Shown here in pieces: positions 24,320-43,635 of a DNA stretch of 64,000 nucleotides. The stretch's first letter is position 1. Each line of letters starts with the position of its first letter. The position numbers were made by a program, and so were the translations under genes. The DNA is from Escherichia coli (GTDB lineage: Bacteria > Pseudomonadota > Gammaproteobacteria > Enterobacterales > Enterobacteriaceae), in the NCBI RefSeq assembly GCF_003334765.1, contig NZ_QOWT01000004.1; one strand, 5' to 3'. Under the pieces are notes generated by a model. That model searched no databases and had not been told where the DNA came from. It saw only the letters and a program-made list of their open reading frames with translations.

Positions 24320-27300
24320 TTAACCTATAGTCATTAAGCTGGCGTTACCGCCAGCGGCAGCGGTATTCACACTCAGCGAACGCTCGATATACAGCCGTTC
24401 CAGAAGGATATTGCTTTCGCCACGGGCAAAACCCTGCACCGAAACAATTGTGCCATCCCGCGCGGCAACTGCTTCACACAATGCGCGAAGCTGATCCGAA
24501 TCACCGTGGAAGATCACCGCATCAAACGGTTGAGCGGTTATATTTTCCGCTTTCGCCAGTTGAATACGTTCGCTGACTGCCGATGGCAATGCCTTCACTA
24601 ACTGACGATGCAGCGCGTCATCCGGCCACAGTACCTGGCTGCCCACCGCCAGCACGGCGGCGAGCTGAGTCAGCGCATCCTGCTCATCATCGGCAATACA
24701 CAACACGCGCTCACGCGGCAGCAGCGTCCAGGTGTTGCGTTCACCCGTCGGCCCCGGCAGCAATCGTTGTGTTCCTGCCTGCGCCAGCTCGCCATATTGC
24801 GTACATAACGCCTGCAATTCTGGACGATTTGCTGCCCATTCCCGCAGTGCATTTAGCGGCTGAGTCAATGCGGCTTTCAACTGCGCATCGACCGGATACT
24901 TTGCATCCTGACGCGCGAGCGTCACTGCCAGCGCACTTTCCGGGCGATTCGCCAGCAGACGGTAGAGATAGAGCGGACCGCCTGCTTTCGGCCCGGTACC
25001 GGACAACCCTTCGCCGCCGAACGGCTGCACACCAACCACTGCGCCCACCATATTACGGTTAACATACAGGTTACCAACATGGGCCGAGCCAGTGACCTGG
25101 GCGATGGTTTCATCAATGCGCGTATGGACGCCAAGCGTCAGACCATAACCGGAAGCGTTAATCTGCTCGATCAGCTCTGGTAGCTGGTTACGGTTGTAAC
25201 GCACCACATGCAGCACCGGACCAAAGACCTCTTTTTGCAATTCGGCAAAGTCATCCAGTTCGATCAGCGTCGGGGCGACAAAGGTGCCGCTTTGCCATTC
25301 ACGGGCATCTTCGCTGTTTTCCCGCACCGCCTGGAACACCGGACGGCCTTTGCTACGCATGGTCTGAATATGGCGCTCAATATTGGCTTTCGCTTCGCTA
25401 TCAATCACTGGACCGATATCGGTGGTCAGGCGACCCGGATTACCTATCCGGCATTCGGCCATTGCGCCGCGCAGCATTTTCAACGTGTGGTCGGCAATCT
25501 CATCTTGCAGGCACAGCACGCGCAGCGCCGAACAACGCTGACCCGCACTGTCGAACGCCGAGGCCAGTACATCCACGACGACCTGTTCGGTCAGTGCTGA
25601 AGAATCGACAATCATCGCGTTCATGCCGCCGGTTTCAGCGATGAGCGGAATAGGGCGACCCTGAGCGTCTAGGCGGCTGGCGATATTGCGCTGCAGTAAC
25701 GTAGCGACTTCGGTTGAACCGGTAAACATCACCCCGCGCACGCGATCATCACCCGTCAGTTGCGCGCCCACGGTTTCACCCCGACCTGGCAGCAATTGCA
25801 CCACGCCTGGCGGTACACCCGCTTCCAGCAAAATGGCGATCCCTTGCGCGGCAATCAGCGGCGTTTGTTCTGCCGGTTTTGCCAGCACGCTGTTACCTGC
25901 CGCCAGTGCGGCGGCGATCTGCCCGGTGAAAATAGCCAGCGGGAAGTTCCACGGACTGATACACACCACAGGCCCTAATGGACGGTGGGTTTCGTTAGCG
26001 AAATCATCCCGCACCTGTCCGGCGTAGTAGTGGAGAAAATCGACCGCTTCGCGCACTTCGGCAATGGCGTTACTGAAGGTTTTTCCGGCCTCACGCACCA
26101 GAATACCAATCAGTTGCTGCATCTGGCTTTCCATCAGCACGGCAGCGCGGTGCAAAATCGCTGCGCGTTCAGCCGGAGGCGTGGCAAACCAGATTGGCGC
26201 GTTATTAACCGCACTTTCCAGCGCCTGTTCTACTTCACGCGGCGTGGCTTCACGCACATAGCCCACAATATCTTTCGGTTCCGCAGGGTTAATAACGGGC
26301 GACATCTCACCTGCCGCTACCGGTTGTTCCAGCATTGGCAAGGCCTGCCATTTTTGCAGTGCACTATTGAGCAGGGCAGAGGAGAGCGAGGCCAGGCGGT
26401 GTTCGTTAGCGAGATCCAGCCCTGCCGAGTTGTCGCGCCCGTGACCGTAAAGATCGCGCGGCAGGGGAATTTTCGGATGCGGTAATCCAGTTTGCCCTTC
26501 CTGTTGCGCCAGTTTTTCTACAGCAGTGACCGGATCGGCGACCAGTTCATCCAGTGGCAAAGAGGTGTCGGCAATACGGTTAACAAACGAGGTGTTAGCA
26601 CCGTTTTCCAGCAGGCGACGCACCAGATACGCCAACAGCGTTTCATGTGTGCCAACCGGAGCATAAATACGACACGGACGGTTAAGTTTGCCGTCGGCAA
26701 CTTTCCCGGTGACCTGCTCATACAGTGGCTCGCCCATACCATGCAGGCACTGGAACTCGTACTGACCCGGGTAGTAGTTCTGCCCCGCCAGTTGATAAAT
26801 CGCCGCCAGCGTATGGGCGTTGTGCGTCGCGAACTGCGGGTAGATTAGATTCGGCACCGCCAGCAGCTTTTTCGCACAGGCGAGATAAGAAACGTCGGTA
26901 TACACCTTGCGGGTATAAACCGGATAACCTTCAAGGCCGTCCATCTGCGCACGCTTAATTTCACTATCCCAGTACGCGCCTTTCACCAGGCGAATCATCA
27001 GACGGCGACGGCTGCGGGTGGCGAGATCAATCAGGTAATCGATCACCAACGGGCAGCGTTTTTGATAAGCCTGAATAACAAAACCGATGCCGTTCCAGCC
27101 TGCCAGTTCCGGCTCGAAACAGAGTTTTTCCAGCAGATCGAGGGAGATCTCCAGGCGATCGGACTCTTCGGCGTCAATGTTGATACCAATATCGTACTGA
27201 CGCGCCAGCAGGGTGAGTGATTTCAGACGCGGGTAAAGCTCTTCCATTACCCGGTCATACTGGGCGCGGCTATAACGCGGATGCAGCGCCGACAGTTTGA

Positions 27301-28282
27301 TTGAAATGCCCGGCCCTTCATAGATGCCACGACCGTTAGACGCTTTACCGATGGCGTGAATCGCCTGCTGATAGGAAACCATATACGCCTGTGCATCTGC
27401 GGCGGTCAGCGCGGCTTCGCCCAGCATATCGTAAGAGTAACGGAAACCTTTCTCTTCCAGCTTGCGGGCATTGGCTAACGCTTCCGCGATGGTTTCGCCA
27501 GTGACGAACTGCTCACCCATCAGGCGCATCGCCATATCCACACCTTTGCGGATCAGCGGTTCACCGCTTTTACCGATAATGCGGTTCAGCGAGCGGGAGA
27601 GGCTGGCTTCGTTATGGGTGGAAACCAGTTTGCCAGTAAACAGCAGCCCCCAGGTGGCGGCATTAACAAACAGTGACGGGCTACGACCAATGTGTGACTG
27701 CCAGTTACCGTTGCTGATTTTGTCGCGAATTAACGCGTCGCGGGTGGCTTTGTCGGGAATACGCAACAACGCTTCCGCCAGACACATCAGCGCCACGCCT
27801 TCCTGCGATGACAGCGAAAACTCCTGCAATAACCCCTGGACCATACCTGCGCGACCACTGGCATTTTTTTGATTACGCAGTTTATCGGCCAGCTGATACG
27901 CCAGTTTGTGCGCCTGTTCAGCAACTGGCTGCGGCAGGCGGGCTTGTTCCAGCAGCATAGAAACCGCTTCGGTTTCCGGGCGGCGATAGGCCGCGGTGAT
28001 CGCGGCGCGGGAAACCGACTGGGGCAATATTTGCTCGGCAAAGTCGAGGAATGGCTGGTGTGGTTCCTCTGCCGGAGTCGGTGCTTCATCGCTCTCATTG
28101 GCCGCGCCAGAAAGCAGCGCAGGTAGCTCCGGCAGAGTATCGCTGTTTTCCAGTTGTTCGAGATAAGAAAAAATCGCCTGCTTAATTAACCAGTGTGGTG
28201 TGCGATCGATACGTGTCGCGGCAGACTTAATACGCTCACGCGTCGCGTCGTCCAGCTTAACCCCCATGGTGGTGGTTCCCAT
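24320..28282 (-). CDS. putA: Bifunctional proline dehydrogenase / P5C dehydrogenase and transcriptional repressor PutA
   Basis: 1320-aa frame from MGTTTMGVKLDDATRERIK (N-terminal RHH DNA-binding domain), PRODH and aldehyde dehydrogenase domains. Confidence 0.95.
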   Translation of the reverse strand: MGTTTMGVKLDDATRERIKSAATRIDRTPHWLIKQAIFSYLEQLENSDTLPELPALLSGAANESDEAPTPAEEPHQPFLDFAEQILPQSVSRAAITAAYRRPETEAVSMLLEQARLPQPVAEQAHKLAYQLADKLRNQKNASGRAGMVQGLLQEFSLSSQEGVALMCLAEALLRIPDKATRDALIRDKISNGNWQSHIGRSPSLFVNAATWGLLFTGKLVSTHNEASLSRSLNRIIGKSGEPLIRKGVDMAMRLMGEQFVTGETIAEALANARKLEEKGFRYSYDMLGEAALTAADAQAYMVSYQQAIHAIGKASNGRGIYEGPGISIKLSALHPRYSRAQYDRVMEELYPRLKSLTLLARQYDIGINIDAEESDRLEISLDLLEKLCFEPELAGWNGIGFVIQAYQKRCPLVIDYLIDLATRSRRRLMIRLVKGAYWDSEIKRAQMDGLEGYPVYTRKVYTDVSYLACAKKLLAVPNLIYPQFATHNAHTLAAIYQLAGQNYYPGQYEFQCLHGMGEPLYEQVTGKVADGKLNRPCRIYAPVGTHETLLAYLVRRLLENGANTSFVNRIADTSLPLDELVADPVTAVEKLAQQEGQTGLPHPKIPLPRDLYGHGRDNSAGLDLANEHRLASLSSALLNSALQKWQALPMLEQPVAAGEMSPVINPAEPKDIVGYVREATPREVEQALESAVNNAPIWFATPPAERAAILHRAAVLMESQMQQLIGILVREAGKTFSNAIAEVREAVDFLHYYAGQVRDDFANETHRPLGPVVCISPWNFPLAIFTGQIAAALAAGNSVLAKPAEQTPLIAAQGIAILLEAGVPPGVVQLLPGRGETVGAQLTGDDRVRGVMFTGSTEVATLLQRNIASRLDAQGRPIPLIAETGGMNAMIVDSSALTEQVVVDVLASAFDSAGQRCSALRVLCLQDEIADHTLKMLRGAMAECRIGNPGRLTTDIGPVIDSEAKANIERHIQTMRSKGRPVFQAVRENSEDAREWQSGTFVAPTLIELDDFAELQKEVFGPVLHVVRYNRNQLPELIEQINASGYGLTLGVHTRIDETIAQVTGSAHVGNLYVNRNMVGAVVGVQPFGGEGLSGTGPKAGGPLYLYRLLANRPESALAVTLARQDAKYPVDAQLKAALTQPLNALREWAANRPELQALCTQYGELAQAGTQRLLPGPTGERNTWTLLPRERVLCIADDEQDALTQLAAVLAVGSQVLWPDDALHRQLVKALPSAVSERIQLAKAENITAQPFDAVIFHGDSDQLRALCEAVAARDGTIVSVQGFARGESNILLERLYIERSLSVNTAAAGGNASLMTIG

Positions 28283-28341
28283 GCCATTACTCCTGTTGTT
28301 CAGAAAGGTGCAACTTAACGTTATCGTGAAATATCCATGAT

Positions 28342-28515
28342 GTTGCAACTTTGTGCAACCATGTTAAATGTGACATGCGTAGCAAGCTTAAAAATGAATG
28401 AAATGTTAATAAAAGAAATCGATATGACAGGGATTAAAAAAATAACTCAGACTTTTTCTCTGCGGCAGTTAACATTTTTGAAAGGTGCAACCGCAAAAAA
28501 TGTGAGAGAGTGCAA
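28342..28515. promoter_or_regulatory. put control region with multiple PutA operator motifs (GTTGCA / TGCAAC)
   Basis: GTTGCA at 28342-28347; TGCAAC at 28355-28360, 28485-28490, 28510-28515 in the divergent putA-putP intergenic region. Confidence 0.8.
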
Positions 28516-28704
28516 CCTGATGAAAAATAGTGTCGCTGAGCACTAAAATTTAATGTAAATGGTGTGTTAAATCGATTGTGAATAACCAGCGCTTCCGGCA
28601 GGATACGGTCGCCCTGGTAAAACATAAACTCTGTTACCCCGTTCCGGTGGCAGATATAACGGCAAGTTTCGACATTGCCGATAATAATTTTTTGGAGACT
28701 TTAG

Positions 28705-30213
<1,509 letters not shown>

Positions 30214-42276: not shown

Positions 42277-43635
42277 ATGGAAAAAGACTATTTGAGAATG
42301 AGTAGTACTGTATTAGTGAGCTTATTGTTTGGGCTTGCTTTGGTTTTGGTGAATAGTTGGTTTAATCAGCCAGGCGTTGAGGAAGTTGTTCCACGATCAA
42401 CCTATCTGATGGTAATGATTGCTTTATTTTTTATCGATACTGTTGCATTTATTTTTATGCAGTTGTATTTCATTTATGACCGTAGGCAATTTTCAAACTG
42501 TGTACTTAGTTTGGCTTTTCTGAGTTGTTTGATTTACTTTGTTATAACCGTCATTATCATTCAGCAAATTATTGAGGAGCGTTTGACAAGCAGTGTTGTC
42601 CAAAATGACATTGCAATCTATTATTTGTTTCGTCAGATGAGTTTGTGCATATTAATATTTCTGGCATTGGTGAATAAAGTTAGTGAAAACACAAAACAGC
42701 GCAATTTATTTTCCAAAAAAATGACTTTGTGCATAAGTTTGTTTTTTGTTTTTGGGGGGCCGATAGTTGCTCACATACTTTCTAGTCATTATGAGAGCTA
42801 CAATTTACACATTGCCGAGTTAACCAATGAAAATGGTCAGGTGGTTTGGAAAGCCTCATATGTTACCATAATGATTTTCATGTGGTTAACCTTGCTTTCG
42901 GTTAATCTATACTTTAATGGTTTACGCTATGATATCTGGAATGGAGTGACGGTGATTGCTTTTTGTGCCGTACTGTACAATATCTCTCTGTTATTTATGA
43001 GCAGGTATAGCGTGTCCACTTGGTATATTAGTCGCACTATTGAAGTAGTCAGTAAGTTAACCGTTATGGTAATATTTATGTGCCATATATTCAGTGCGCT
43101 ACGAGTAACAAAGAACATTGCACATCGCGATCCCTTAACCAATATATTTAACAGAAATTATTTTTTTAATGAACTGACAGTTCAATCAGCATCAGCCCAA
43201 AAAACGCCTTATTGCGTCATGATTATGGATATCGACCACTTCAAAAAAGTCAACGACACCTGGGGGCATCCGGTTGGCGATCAGGTGATAAAAACAGTGG
43301 TGAATATCATTGGGAAAAGCATACGACCAGATGACCTTTTAGCGCGCGTCGGCGGCGAAGAGTTTGGCGTCTTGCTGACGGACATCGATACTGAACGTGC
43401 GAAAGCTTTAGCGGAAAGGATTCGGGAAAATGTTGAGCGTTTAACTGGCGATAATCCTGAATACGCTATACCACAAAAAGTGACGATTAGTATTGGCGCT
43501 GTTGTGACTCAGGAAAATGCGTTAAACCCAAATGAGATCTATCGACTGGCTGATAACGCACTTTACGAGGCGAAAGAGACCGGGCGTAATAAGGTGGTTG
43601 TGAGGGATGTGGTGAATTTTTGTGAGTCACCATAA
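42277..43635 (+). CDS. dgcT: Diguanylate cyclase DgcT/YcdT (MASE4 membrane domain + GGDEF)
   Basis: 452-aa frame from MEKDYLRMSSTVLV; N-terminal polytopic membrane domain, C-terminal GGDEF domain with RVGGEEFG active-site motif. Confidence 0.95.
   Translation: MEKDYLRMSSTVLVSLLFGLALVLVNSWFNQPGVEEVVPRSTYLMVMIALFFIDTVAFIFMQLYFIYDRRQFSNCVLSLAFLSCLIYFVITVIIIQQIIEERLTSSVVQNDIAIYYLFRQMSLCILIFLALVNKVSENTKQRNLFSKKMTLCISLFFVFGGPIVAHILSSHYESYNLHIAELTNENGQVVWKASYVTIMIFMWLTLLSVNLYFNGLRYDIWNGVTVIAFCAVLYNISLLFMSRYSVSTWYISRTIEVVSKLTVMVIFMCHIFSALRVTKNIAHRDPLTNIFNRNYFFNELTVQSASAQKTPYCVMIMDIDHFKKVNDTWGHPVGDQVIKTVVNIIGKSIRPDDLLARVGGEEFGVLLTDIDTERAKALAERIRENVERLTGDNPEYAIPQKVTISIGAVVTQENALNPNEIYRLADNALYEAKETGRNKVVVRDVVNFCESP

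What the first reader, a model, noticed from the sequence alone, without database searches (positions are those of the whole stretch)
28342..28515. Four GTTGCA/TGCAAC PutA operator motifs in the put intergenic region
Hexamers matching the PutA recognition sequence occur at 28342, 28355, 28485 and 28510, clustered over the divergent putA/putP promoters, consistent with autoregulation by the PutA RHH domain.
Basis: partly seen in the sequence, partly recalled or inferred. Interest (0 to 1): 0.15.

Follow-up and report, generated by a model that had tools for sequence, protein, structure and literature searches.

The report
Known PutA operators between putA and putP
These short repeats are the well-known docking sites through which the E. 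coli proline-degrading enzyme PutA switches off its own gene and the proline transporter gene, so the finding is correct but ordinary.

Summary
The window here is E. coli. Bases 28183-28804 are identical to K-12 MG1655, with putA (24320-28282, minus strand) and putP (28705-30213, plus strand) flanking a 422-bp spacer.

Three of the four start coordinates are off by one base; the true starts are 28342/28344, 28354, 28486 and 28511. A fifth hexamer at 28309 was missed.

The clustering is not chance. There are 6 matches against 0.41 expected, and only 2 of 100,000 dinucleotide-preserving shuffles reach 6. The 64-kb window as a whole is not enriched.

In 71 orthologous putA-putP spacers from Enterobacteriaceae and Erwiniaceae, the four listed sites are the most conserved islands (0.996 identity against 0.64 elsewhere). 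Their orientation is fixed and so is their local spacing (10 bp, and 24-26 bp). The fifth site exists only in E. coli and its closest relatives.

The adjacent PutA is the trifunctional type. Its ribbon-helix-helix (RHH) N-terminus is identical to the crystallised DNA-binding domain.

This is the published PutA operator set with the GTTGCA core.

Seen in passing: a covarying hairpin with an invariant loop in the putP leader, which is not in Rfam.

The parts
24320..28282 (-). putA, encoding the trifunctional PutA (RHH repressor domain + proline dehydrogenase + P5C dehydrogenase), 1320 aa. The ATG is at 28282-28280.
   Evidence: ORF list; NCBIfam NF008772 at 2656 bits; Pfam PutA_1st, PRODH, Pro_dh-DNA_bdg, Pro_dh and Aldedh; N-terminus identical to PDB 4o8a, 2rbf and 2gpe; RefSeq annotation.
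28283..28704 (.). put control region: the 422-bp divergent putA-putP spacer, 38% GC.
   Evidence: Identical to MG1655 1078883-1079304. Present in 5421 of 5426 complete E. coli genomes.
28309..28314 (-). It lies 27-32 nt upstream of the putA ATG, at about +10..+15 of the inferred putA transcript. It is specific to Escherichia.
   Evidence: Present only in E. coli, two unnamed Escherichia species and E. whittamii among the 71 spacers; absent in E. albertii and all other genera. Column identity is 0.29. The hexamer is intact in two sampled E. coli of the major variant, whose SNP is at 28302.
28342..28349 (.). Palindromic site GTTGCAAC (probably operator 4). The hexamer can be read on either strand. 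It sits in the spacer of the inferred putA promoter.
   Evidence: GTTGCAAC is present in 71 of 71 orthologous spacers.
28353..28360 (-). Site GGTTGCAC, hexamer at 28354-28359 (probably operator 3). It is 10 bp from the previous site and contains the inferred putA -35 element TTGCAC (28358-28353).
   Evidence: The 10-bp spacing holds in 70 of 70 spacers. The block 28340-28360 is the longest conserved run of the spacer.
28485..28492 (-). Site GGTTGCAC, hexamer at 28486-28491 (probably operator 2, the one crystallised with PutA52 in PDB 2RBF; sequence recalled from memory). It lies at -82..-77 relative to putP P1.
   Evidence: conserved run GGTGCAACC at 28484-28492. The TGCAAC core is intact in nearly all of the 71 spacers. 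The GGTGCAAC columns are invariant among the 15 genera aligned. The flanks vary.
28510..28517 (-). Site GGTTGCAC, hexamer at 28511-28516 (probably operator 1). It lies at -57..-52 relative to putP P1. It abuts a conserved TGTGA (28501-28505), which may be half of a CRP site.
   Evidence: conserved run AGTGCAACCT at 28509-28518. The exact hexamer is present in 65 of 71 spacers; Kosakonia sacchari has one mismatch. Spacing to the previous site is 24-26 bp.
28330..28358 (-). Inferred putA core promoter: -35 TTGCAC (28358-28353), a 17-bp spacer, -10 GATATT (28335-28330), and a transcript start near 28323.
   Evidence: This is inference. The -10-like GATATC/GATATT block is nearly invariant in the 15-genus alignment (invariant columns 48 and 50-53). 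The consensus scan missed it because the -35 matches only 3 of 6 positions.
28568..28568 (+). putP P1 transcription start, reported at -137 from the ATG. P4 (-95/-94) falls at about 28610 and P5 (-13) at about 28692.
   Evidence: PMC2760140 Table 1, citing Nakao 1987 and confirmed by that paper's own mapping. The conversion to window coordinates is mine.
28705..30213 (+). putP, the sodium/proline symporter, 502 aa.
   Evidence: ORF list; NCBIfam NF011948 at 1143 bits; RefSeq annotation.

Best explanation
The hexamers are the operator sites of the E. coli put regulon. The N-terminal RHH fold of a PutA dimer inserts its two-stranded beta-sheet into the major groove at a GTTGCA core. The conserved unit here is about 8-9 bp, GGTTGCAC.

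When proline is scarce, oxidised PutA is cytoplasmic and occupies these sites. The three sites on the putA side (28309, 28342-49, 28354-59) cover the downstream flank, the spacer and the -35 element of the putA promoter, so they block RNA polymerase. The central pair (28486, 28511) sits 52-82 bp upstream of the putP P1 start. From there it lowers putP transcription, most likely by blocking upstream contacts or an activator such as CRP.

When proline is available it reduces the FAD of PutA. Reduced PutA binds the membrane much more tightly and so leaves the DNA, and both genes are derepressed.

Shown here: the presence, enrichment, orientation, spacing and deep conservation of the sites; the identity of the genes and of the RHH domain; and sequence identity with K-12. 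Taken from the literature: PutA binding to this spacer and the redox/membrane switch. Inferred: which promoter element each site overlaps, and the anti-activation mode at putP.
For: The sequence is identical to K-12 MG1655. There are 6 hexamer matches against 0.41 expected, and 2 of 100,000 shuffles reach 6. All five sites share one orientation.

In 71 orthologous spacers the four core sites have mean identity 0.996 against 0.64 for the rest of the spacer. They form three of the four longest conserved runs. Their flanks vary, which bounds a unit of about 8-10 bp. The 10-bp spacing holds in 70 of 70 spacers and the other local spacing is 24-26 bp. The adjacent 900 bp of putP coding sequence carries on average 0.02 TGCAAC and 0.05 GTTGCA per locus.

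PutA is the trifunctional type with an RHH domain. Its residues 1-52 match the full length of the PutA52 chain of the DNA complex 2rbf, and residues 1-66 are shown identical to 4o8a.

Literature: gSELEX finds PutA bound only at the putA/putP spacer (PMC8249747). PutA binds the roughly 420-bp put control DNA with Kd about 45 nM, and proline reduction raises membrane affinity while lowering DNA affinity only about 2-fold (PMC5293562). Repression and derepression are summarised in PMC5879082. PutA appears to bind DNA as a single RHH dimer (PMC2777438). The putP P1 start is at -137 (PMC2760140).

From memory, not checked here: Zhou et al. 2008 (J Mol Biol 381:174) report five GTTGCA operators, three needed for putA repression and two for putP. 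I also recall that the 21-mer crystallised in 2RBF matches window 28477-28497.
Against: No binding experiment can be run with these tools, and the primary mapping paper is not held. The operator numbering and the 3+2 functional split therefore rest on my memory.

The 28486/28511 pair does not overlap the -35/-10 of the mapped putP P1, so simple promoter occlusion is not shown for putP. The putA start site is inferred, not mapped here.

The fifth site (28309) is not conserved outside Escherichia, so conservation gives it no support. GTTGCA resembles the -35 consensus TTGACA, so part of the conservation of the 28354 site could reflect promoter function.
Confidence: 0.94

Rival explanations
1. 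Chance: a short hexamer recurs in an AT-rich spacer without any function.
For: GTTGCA is only 6 bp, and across the whole 64-kb window it is not enriched: 48 matches against 56 expected.
Against: Within the spacer there are 6 matches against 0.41 expected, and 2 of 100,000 composition-preserving shuffles reach 6. Five copies in one orientation occurred in 0 of 100,000 shuffles. Four sites are invariant across 71 spacers from at least 20 genera while neighbouring bases diverge.
Confidence: 0.005
2. The conserved blocks are promoter elements (-35-like TTGCA, compare TTGACA) for the several put promoters. They are conserved for RNA polymerase recognition rather than for a repressor.
For: TTGCAC at 28358-28353 lies 17 bp from a conserved GATATT and is a plausible putA -35 element (inference). 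putP has five reported start sites (PMC2760140).
Against: All sites share an identical longer unit, GGTTGCAC, in a single orientation, including on the putP side, where a -35 for putP would have to read on the other strand. Sites 10 bp apart cannot both be -35 elements of one promoter. The sites at 28486 and 28511 are 52-82 bp upstream of P1, with no matching -10 at the correct distance. The literature reports direct PutA binding to this DNA.
Confidence: 0.03
3. The sites belong to another regulator that shares the core, such as CytR, whose octamer is GTTGCATT.
For: RegulonDB models the CytR site as GTTGCATT repeats (PMC3013702), which shares the six-base core.
Against: None of the spacer sites has the TT extension; they read GTTGCAC(C/A/T) or GTTGCAAC. 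The only GTTGCATT in the window is at 42442. The put genes are not nucleoside-catabolism genes. gSELEX with PutA selects this spacer.
Confidence: 0.01
4. The conservation reflects protein coding. The 28486 and 28511 sites lie inside the 40-aa form of the small protein YmdG (28424-28546), and all four listed sites lie inside a 69-aa ORF (28337-28546) that PGAP annotates in many strains.
For: A tagged YmdG was detected (PMC6001520). RefSeq annotates ymdG, and PGAP annotates the 69-aa ORF.
Against: Outside the 8-10-bp islands the ORF region is poorly conserved and carries indels. The ATG at 28520 is replaced in Salmonella, Citrobacter and Klebsiella. RefSeq K-12 now restricts ymdG to 8 codons (28520-28546), which excludes every hexamer.
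Confidence: 0.005

Closest known systems
E. coli K-12 put control region with five PutA operators (Zhou et al. 2008, J Mol Biol 381:174; PDB 2RBF is PutA52 bound to operator 2)
   Same: This is the same DNA: the 622 bp around the spacer are 100% identical to MG1655. The GTTGCA core, the five sites and the 3+2 grouping all match. The same protein N-terminus was crystallised.
   Different: Nothing in the sequence differs. The operator numbering and functional split are recalled from memory because the paper is not held.
Salmonella enterica put control region (Hahn et al. 1988; Ostrovsky de Spicer and Maloy)
   Same: Divergent putA-putP genes with a 419-421-bp spacer. The same four core sites sit at equivalent positions with the same 10-bp and 25-bp spacings (L024, L072).
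   Different: Salmonella lacks the 28309-type site. It has instead an extra GTTGCA in the opposite orientation about 100 nt from the putA ATG, where E. coli reads GTAGCA (28380-28385).
Pseudomonas putida PutA RHH domain (PpPutA45; PDB 2jxg, 2jxh, 2jxi)
   Same: A homologous RHH domain (E = 7.5e-20 against the window's PutA N-terminus). It is reported to recognise the same GTTGCA core (from memory).
   Different: It belongs to a different family of bacteria. Its spacer was not examined here, because the search pattern was restricted to the enteric N-terminal sequence.
Classical RHH repressors (Arc, MetJ, CopG, Mnt)
   Same: The same fold and the same mode of base reading, by an antiparallel beta-sheet in the major groove. 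They are autoregulatory operators at their own promoters. CopG-family chains are the next-best PDB matches.
   Different: Those proteins bind tandem or inverted repeats cooperatively as dimers of dimers. PutA is described as binding single sites as one dimer (PMC2777438). Here most sites are at least 24 bp apart, and only the 28342-49 and 28354-59 sites are 10 bp apart. In PutA the RHH domain is fused to a 1300-residue enzyme, and the effector acts through membrane relocation, not through allosteric loss of DNA affinity.
CytR operators (GTTGCATT octamers)
   Same: They share the six-base core GTTGCA.
   Different: The octamer extension is absent from every put site. CytR belongs to a different protein family (LacI type) and a different regulon.

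Membership tests
PutA (RHH) operators of the put regulon | Core recognition sequence 5'-GTTGCA-3' | tested here: met
   There are five non-overlapping exact copies in the 422-bp spacer. Three of them extend to GGTTGCAC.
PutA (RHH) operators of the put regulon | Location in the spacer between divergently transcribed putA and putP | tested here: met
   putA is at 24320-28282 (-) and putP at 28705-30213 (+). All sites fall within 28309-28516.
PutA (RHH) operators of the put regulon | The cognate PutA is the trifunctional type, with an N-terminal RHH DNA-binding domain | tested here: met
   NF008772 equivalog at 2656 bits against a cut-off of 1750. Pfam PutA_1st, E = 3.4e-21. Residues 1-52 match the full length of chains 2gpe and 2rbf, and residues 1-66 are shown identical to 4o8a. 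The N-terminus reads MGTTTMGVK, so T5, G7 and K9 are present; their role as base contacts is recalled from memory.
PutA (RHH) operators of the put regulon | More copies than chance gives, and conserved in orthologous control regions | tested here: met
   2 of 100,000 shuffles reach the observed count. Four sites are invariant or nearly so in 71 spacers. The fifth site, at 28309, fails the conservation part: it is found only in Escherichia.
PutA (RHH) operators of the put regulon | Physical binding by PutA (gel shift, footprint or crystal structure) and loss of repression when mutated | not testable with these tools
   The literature covers the identical K-12 sequence: a single gSELEX peak at the putA/putP spacer (PMC8249747) and Kd about 45 nM on put control DNA (PMC5293562). 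Site-by-site mapping (Zhou 2008) is recalled from memory only, because the paper is not held.
PutA (RHH) operators of the put regulon | Overlap with the putA and putP promoters | tested here: inconclusive
   For putA, the inferred -35 TTGCAC lies inside the 28354 site and a conserved -10-like GATATT follows 17 bp away. There is no mapped start site to confirm this. For putP, the mapped P1 start puts the 28486 and 28511 sites at -82..-52, upstream of the core promoter. The consensus promoter scan gave one site, and it does not fit P1.
CytR operators | Octamer GTTGCATT in direct or inverted pairs about 2 bp apart | tested here: not met
   There is no GTTGCATT in the spacer; the only copy in the window is at 42442. 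The definition comes from PMC3013702.
Arc/MetJ/CopG-type cooperative RHH operators | Tandem or inverted sub-sites about one helical turn apart, bound by a dimer of dimers | tested here: inconclusive
   Only the 28344 and 28354 sites are 10 bp apart, as direct repeats, and this spacing is invariant in 70 of 70 spacers. The other sites are 24-146 bp apart, and the distance between the two clusters varies from 130 to 146 bp, so no fixed helical phase is kept. The literature describes PutA as binding as a single dimer.

The most novel reading that the evidence does not exclude
The operator set has a fixed core and a changeable periphery. Four sites, two pairs with fixed spacing and orientation, are common to all Enterobacteriaceae and Erwiniaceae sampled. 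The fifth E. coli operator (28309, in the putA 5' leader) is a recent Escherichia-specific gain. Salmonella, Kluyvera and E. albertii instead carry a different, oppositely oriented fifth hexamer about 100 nt from the putA ATG. If both extra sites are functional, the tightness of putA autorepression has been tuned independently in different lineages.

A second part of this reading concerns putP. The 28511 site abuts a universally conserved TGTGA (28501-28505) centred about 60 bp upstream of putP P1. PutA may therefore repress putP by displacing CRP rather than by blocking RNA polymerase.
Probability: 0.35. Interest if true: 0.25.

Novelty: already known. Interest (0 to 1): 0.08.

Why it matters
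For the scan, it matters mainly as a calibration point. A reader without tools recognised a textbook regulatory element correctly, missing one site and misplacing three coordinates by one base.

Biologically, the put system is the classic case of a 'trigger enzyme': an enzyme that is also its own repressor and is switched by moving to the membrane. Nothing here changes that picture.

The comparative analysis adds two small points. The functional unit is an 8-9-bp GGTTGCAC. The core architecture shared across enteric bacteria has four sites, with the fifth E. coli site being lineage-specific.

The more interesting lead lies outside the finding. The putP leader contains a covarying hairpin with an invariant loop, and a mapped RNA 3' end lies just downstream of it. 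I found neither a description of it nor an Rfam family for it.

Tried and rejected
1. I tried to read the primary footprint and structure papers and reviews: Zhou 2008 (PMC2665032 and its DOI), Tanner 2008 (PMC2664619), Singh & Tanner 2012 (PMC3715380), Larson 2006 (PMC2242416), Gu 2004 (PMC1390768) and a guessed id for the 2017 review (PMC5650515). None is held. Full-text searches for GTTGCA with 'proline utilization', and for 'PutA52', returned nothing. The direct comparison with published footprint positions therefore could not be made from a document.

2. The consensus promoter scan of 28200-28780 gave one sigma-70-like site (28520-28549, +). That is no more than in shuffles, and it does not fit the mapped P1 start, so I did not use it.

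3. The CytR reading was rejected because the octamer is absent.

4. Coding constraint from ymdG or the 69-aa PGAP ORF was rejected because the ORF is not conserved.

5. An Rfam scan of 28200-28800 at E <= 1 found nothing.

6. A fixed helical phase between the two operator clusters, which would suggest looping, was rejected as a conserved feature because the distance varies from 130 to 146 bp.

7. The first Pfam submission failed because the protein exceeds 1200 aa. I reran it on residues 1-1200.

Full report
WHAT IS THERE

The region is the put control region of Escherichia coli. Window 28183-28804 is base-for-base identical to K-12 MG1655 NC_000913.3 1078783-1079404, so window coordinate + 1,050,600 gives the MG1655 coordinate. 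The 422-bp spacer occurs in 5421 of 5426 complete E. coli genomes.

To the left lies putA on the minus strand (24320-28282, ATG at 28282). To the right lies putP on the plus strand (28705-30213). The products match the NCBIfam equivalogs for the trifunctional PutA (NF008772, 2656 bits) and for the Na+/proline symporter PutP (NF011948). Pfam finds the PutA RHH domain at residues 11-43, followed by the PRODH, Pro_dh-DNA_bdg, Pro_dh and Aldedh domains. The first 52 residues match the full length of the crystallised DNA-binding domain chains (2gpe; 2rbf is the DNA complex), and residues 1-66 are shown identical to 4o8a.

CHECK OF THE OBSERVATION

On the plus strand of the spacer (28283-28704, 38% GC):
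- TGCAAC starts at 28309, 28344, 28354, 28486 and 28511.
- GTTGCA starts at 28342.

The 28342 and 28344 copies overlap in the palindrome GTTGCAAC. Three of the start coordinates are one base off, and a fifth site (28309) was overlooked. All five read GTTGCA on the putA sense strand.

The spacer has 6 hexamer matches. Dinucleotide-preserving shuffles of the spacer give a mean of 0.41, and only 2 of 100,000 reach 6. None gives five copies in one orientation. No other low-GC 422-bp stretch of the window has more than 2, while the window as a whole is not enriched (48 against 56 expected). The 12-mer GAAAGGTGCAAC occurs twice exactly (28303 and 28480). Three of the four copies of GGTTGCAC in the 64 kb are in the spacer.

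INDEPENDENT EVIDENCE FROM RELATED GENOMES

A degenerate pattern for the PutA N-terminus retrieved 78 loci from one-genome-per-species contigs. In 71 of them the divergent putP could be located, with spacers of 389-556 bp. They cover Escherichia, Salmonella, Citrobacter, Klebsiella, Raoultella, Kluyvera, Kosakonia, Pluralibacter, Atlantibacter, Franconibacter, Siccibacter, Trabulsiella, Yokenella, Superficieibacter, Pantoea, Erwinia, Mixta and others.

- GTTGCAAC is present in 71 of 71 spacers, and the next TGCAAC lies exactly 10 bp further on in 70 of 70.
- The central pair is present in nearly all, with the two sites 25 bp apart (24-26).
- The distance between the two clusters varies from 130 to 146 bp, with one outlier at 172.
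- Mean identity to the window is 0.996 in the four listed sites against 0.64 in the rest of the spacer.
- Three of the four longest conserved runs are ATGTTGCAACTTTGTGCAACC (28340-28360), AGTGCAACCT (28509-28518) and GGTGCAACC (28484-28492).
- The bases flanking each unit vary freely, which bounds a unit of about 8-10 bp. On the putA strand this reads GGTTGCAC(A/C/T) at three sites and AAAGTTGCAACAT at the palindrome. A 15-genus alignment shows the same pattern.
- The adjacent 900 bp of putP coding sequence carries on average 0.02 TGCAAC and 0.05 GTTGCA per locus.

The fifth site (28309) behaves differently. It is found only in E. coli, two unnamed Escherichia species and E. whittamii, and not in E. 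albertii or any other genus; column identity is 0.29. Within E. coli the common polymorphism near it is at 28302, outside the hexamer. Salmonella, Kluyvera and E. albertii carry a different extra GTTGCA on the opposite strand about 96-100 nt from the putA ATG, where E. coli reads GTAGCA (28380-28385).

HOW IT WORKS

The literature available in the library supports the following points:
- PutA binds operator sites between putA and putP and represses both genes when proline is low (PMC5879082).
- In genomic SELEX, PutA binds only this spacer in the whole K-12 genome (PMC8249747).
- PutA binds the roughly 420-bp put control DNA with Kd about 45 nM (PMC5293562).
- Proline reduction of the flavin strongly raises membrane affinity but lowers DNA affinity only about 2-fold, so derepression works by relocating the repressor to the membrane (PMC5293562).
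- PutA appears to bind DNA as a single RHH dimer rather than as a dimer of dimers (PMC2777438).

From memory of Zhou et al. 2008 (not held): five GTTGCA operators were mapped by gel shift. Three are needed for putA repression and two for putP. The structure of PutA52 on operator 2 shows contacts to a 9-bp stretch, and I recall that 21-mer matching window 28477-28497. This agrees with the 3+2 grouping and the 8-9-bp conserved unit found here. Reading along the putA strand, the probable numbering is O1 = 28511, O2 = 28486, O3 = 28354, O4 = 28342-49 and O5 = 28309.

Placement relative to promoters is partly inferred. For putA, the 15-genus alignment shows a nearly invariant GATAT(T/C) block (28335-28330 on the minus strand). 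It lies 17 bp downstream of TTGCAC (28358-28353), which is inside the 28354 site. This gives a plausible -35/-10 pair with a start near 28323. On that reading the 28354 site covers the -35 element, the palindrome lies in the spacer, and the 28309 site sits at about +10..+15. That is a classic occlusion-plus-roadblock arrangement.

For putP, the mapped P1 start is 137 nt upstream of the ATG (PMC2760140), which is window 28568. The 28511 and 28486 sites therefore lie at -57..-52 and -82..-77, upstream of the core promoter. The 28511 site directly follows a universally conserved TGTGA (28501-28505). Interference with CRP or with alpha-subunit contacts is therefore the most likely mode, but this is inference.

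RIVALS

- Chance is excluded.
- A promoter-element-only reading does not explain five copies of one longer unit in one orientation, or two copies 10 bp apart.
- CytR shares the core, but its octamer GTTGCATT is absent from the spacer.
- Coding constraint from the small ORF ymdG, or from the 69-aa ORF that PGAP annotates across the sites, is contradicted by the poor conservation and the indels between the islands, and by the loss of the ATG outside Escherichia.

COMPARISON AND NOVELTY

This is not a relative of the known system; it is the known system, in the very sequence in which it was characterised. All membership features testable here are met. Physical binding cannot be tested here and rests on the literature. 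The novelty class is 'already known' and the interest is low.

The small additions from this work are three:
- The core architecture shared across enteric bacteria has four sites with fixed local spacing.
- The conserved unit is GGTTGCAC.
- The fifth E. coli operator is lineage-specific.

SEEN IN PASSING

The putP leader is structured. A hairpin at 28632-28652 has 7 of 7 base pairs with compensatory changes among 65 distinct sequences, and 92% of cells are paired (88% for the two hairpins together, against 23-52% when the partner columns are slid). Its 7-nt loop, CCGUUCC, is invariant. A second hairpin at 28660-28680 also covaries. Published 3'-end mapping places an RNA 3' end at MG1655 1079260, which is window 28660, 8 nt after the first hairpin (PMC7815308 supplementary file 3). 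UUCCGG, which spans the 3' part of the loop and the first two bases of the 3' stem arm (28642-28647), recurs at 28593-28598 and is complementary to the conserved Shine-Dalgarno region (C/U)UGGAG (28690-28695). Rfam has no match.

Other conserved blocks are TGTTAA repeats that fit the ArcA direct-repeat element; an ArcA-P footprint at putP P1 is published (PMC3798270).

Noticed in passing
window 28632-28652 (+), with a second hairpin at 28660-28680 and a conserved block at 28591-28608: The putP 5' leader holds a hairpin whose stem covaries between genera. All 7 pairs show compensatory changes, and 92% of cells are paired in 65 distinct sequences. The wobble pairs are G-U only on the + strand, which points to RNA. 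The 7-nt loop CCGUUCC is invariant. UUCCGG (28642-28647, the 3' part of the loop plus the first two bases of the 3' stem arm) recurs at 28593-28598 and is complementary to the conserved Shine-Dalgarno region (C/U)UGGAG at 28690-28695. There is no Rfam match, and I found no description in the papers searched.
   Followed up: partly
window 28660 (+), which is MG1655 1079260: Published 3'-end mapping (PMC7815308, supplementary file 3) lists an RNA 3' end 45 nt upstream of putP. It is flagged 'uORF' and not Rho-dependent. It falls 8 nt after the covarying hairpin, so a 93-nt fragment from P1 or a roughly 50-nt fragment from P4 may accumulate.
   Followed up: partly
window 28520-28546 (+); longer forms at 28424-28546 and 28337-28546: The small ORF ymdG lies inside the put spacer. 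RefSeq K-12 annotates 8 codons (MKNSVAEH). The original report gave a 40-aa form that contains the 28486 and 28511 operators. PGAP annotates a 69-aa 'hypothetical protein' (WP_000979516.1) spanning all four listed hexamers in many strains. The ORF and its ATG are not conserved outside Escherichia, and it lies upstream of the mapped putP P1 start (28568), so its transcript must come from another promoter.
   Followed up: partly
window 28362-28367, 28404-28409 and 28565-28581 (+): Conserved TGTTAA repeats include TGTTAAatcgaTTGTGAA across the putP P1 start. They resemble ArcA direct-repeat elements with 11-bp spacing. An ArcA-P footprint on the putP P1 promoter and ArcA repression of putA and putP are published (PMC3798270).
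   Followed up: partly
window 28369-28373 and 28501-28505 (+): Two TGTGA pentamers, each preceded by AAA, are conserved across genera next to the operator clusters. The second, together with the 28511 operator, forms TGTGA-N6-GCAAC, centred about 60 bp upstream of putP P1. These are possible CRP half-sites that overlap PutA operators; I did not score them with a CRP matrix.
   Followed up: no
L064 (Klebsiella oxytoca) and L050 (K. spallanzanii), spacer positions about 20-150: These two Klebsiella species carry an insertion of about 85-135 bp between the putA start codon and the first operator pair, giving spacers of 556 and 507 bp. This lengthens the putA leader without disturbing the operator spacings.
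   Followed up: no
window 28380-28385 (+), compared with Salmonella L024/L072, Kluyvera L009/L020/L035 and E. albertii L005: E. coli reads GTAGCA here, whereas several other genera have an exact GTTGCA in the opposite orientation to the other sites. This may be an alternative fifth operator in those lineages.
   Followed up: partly
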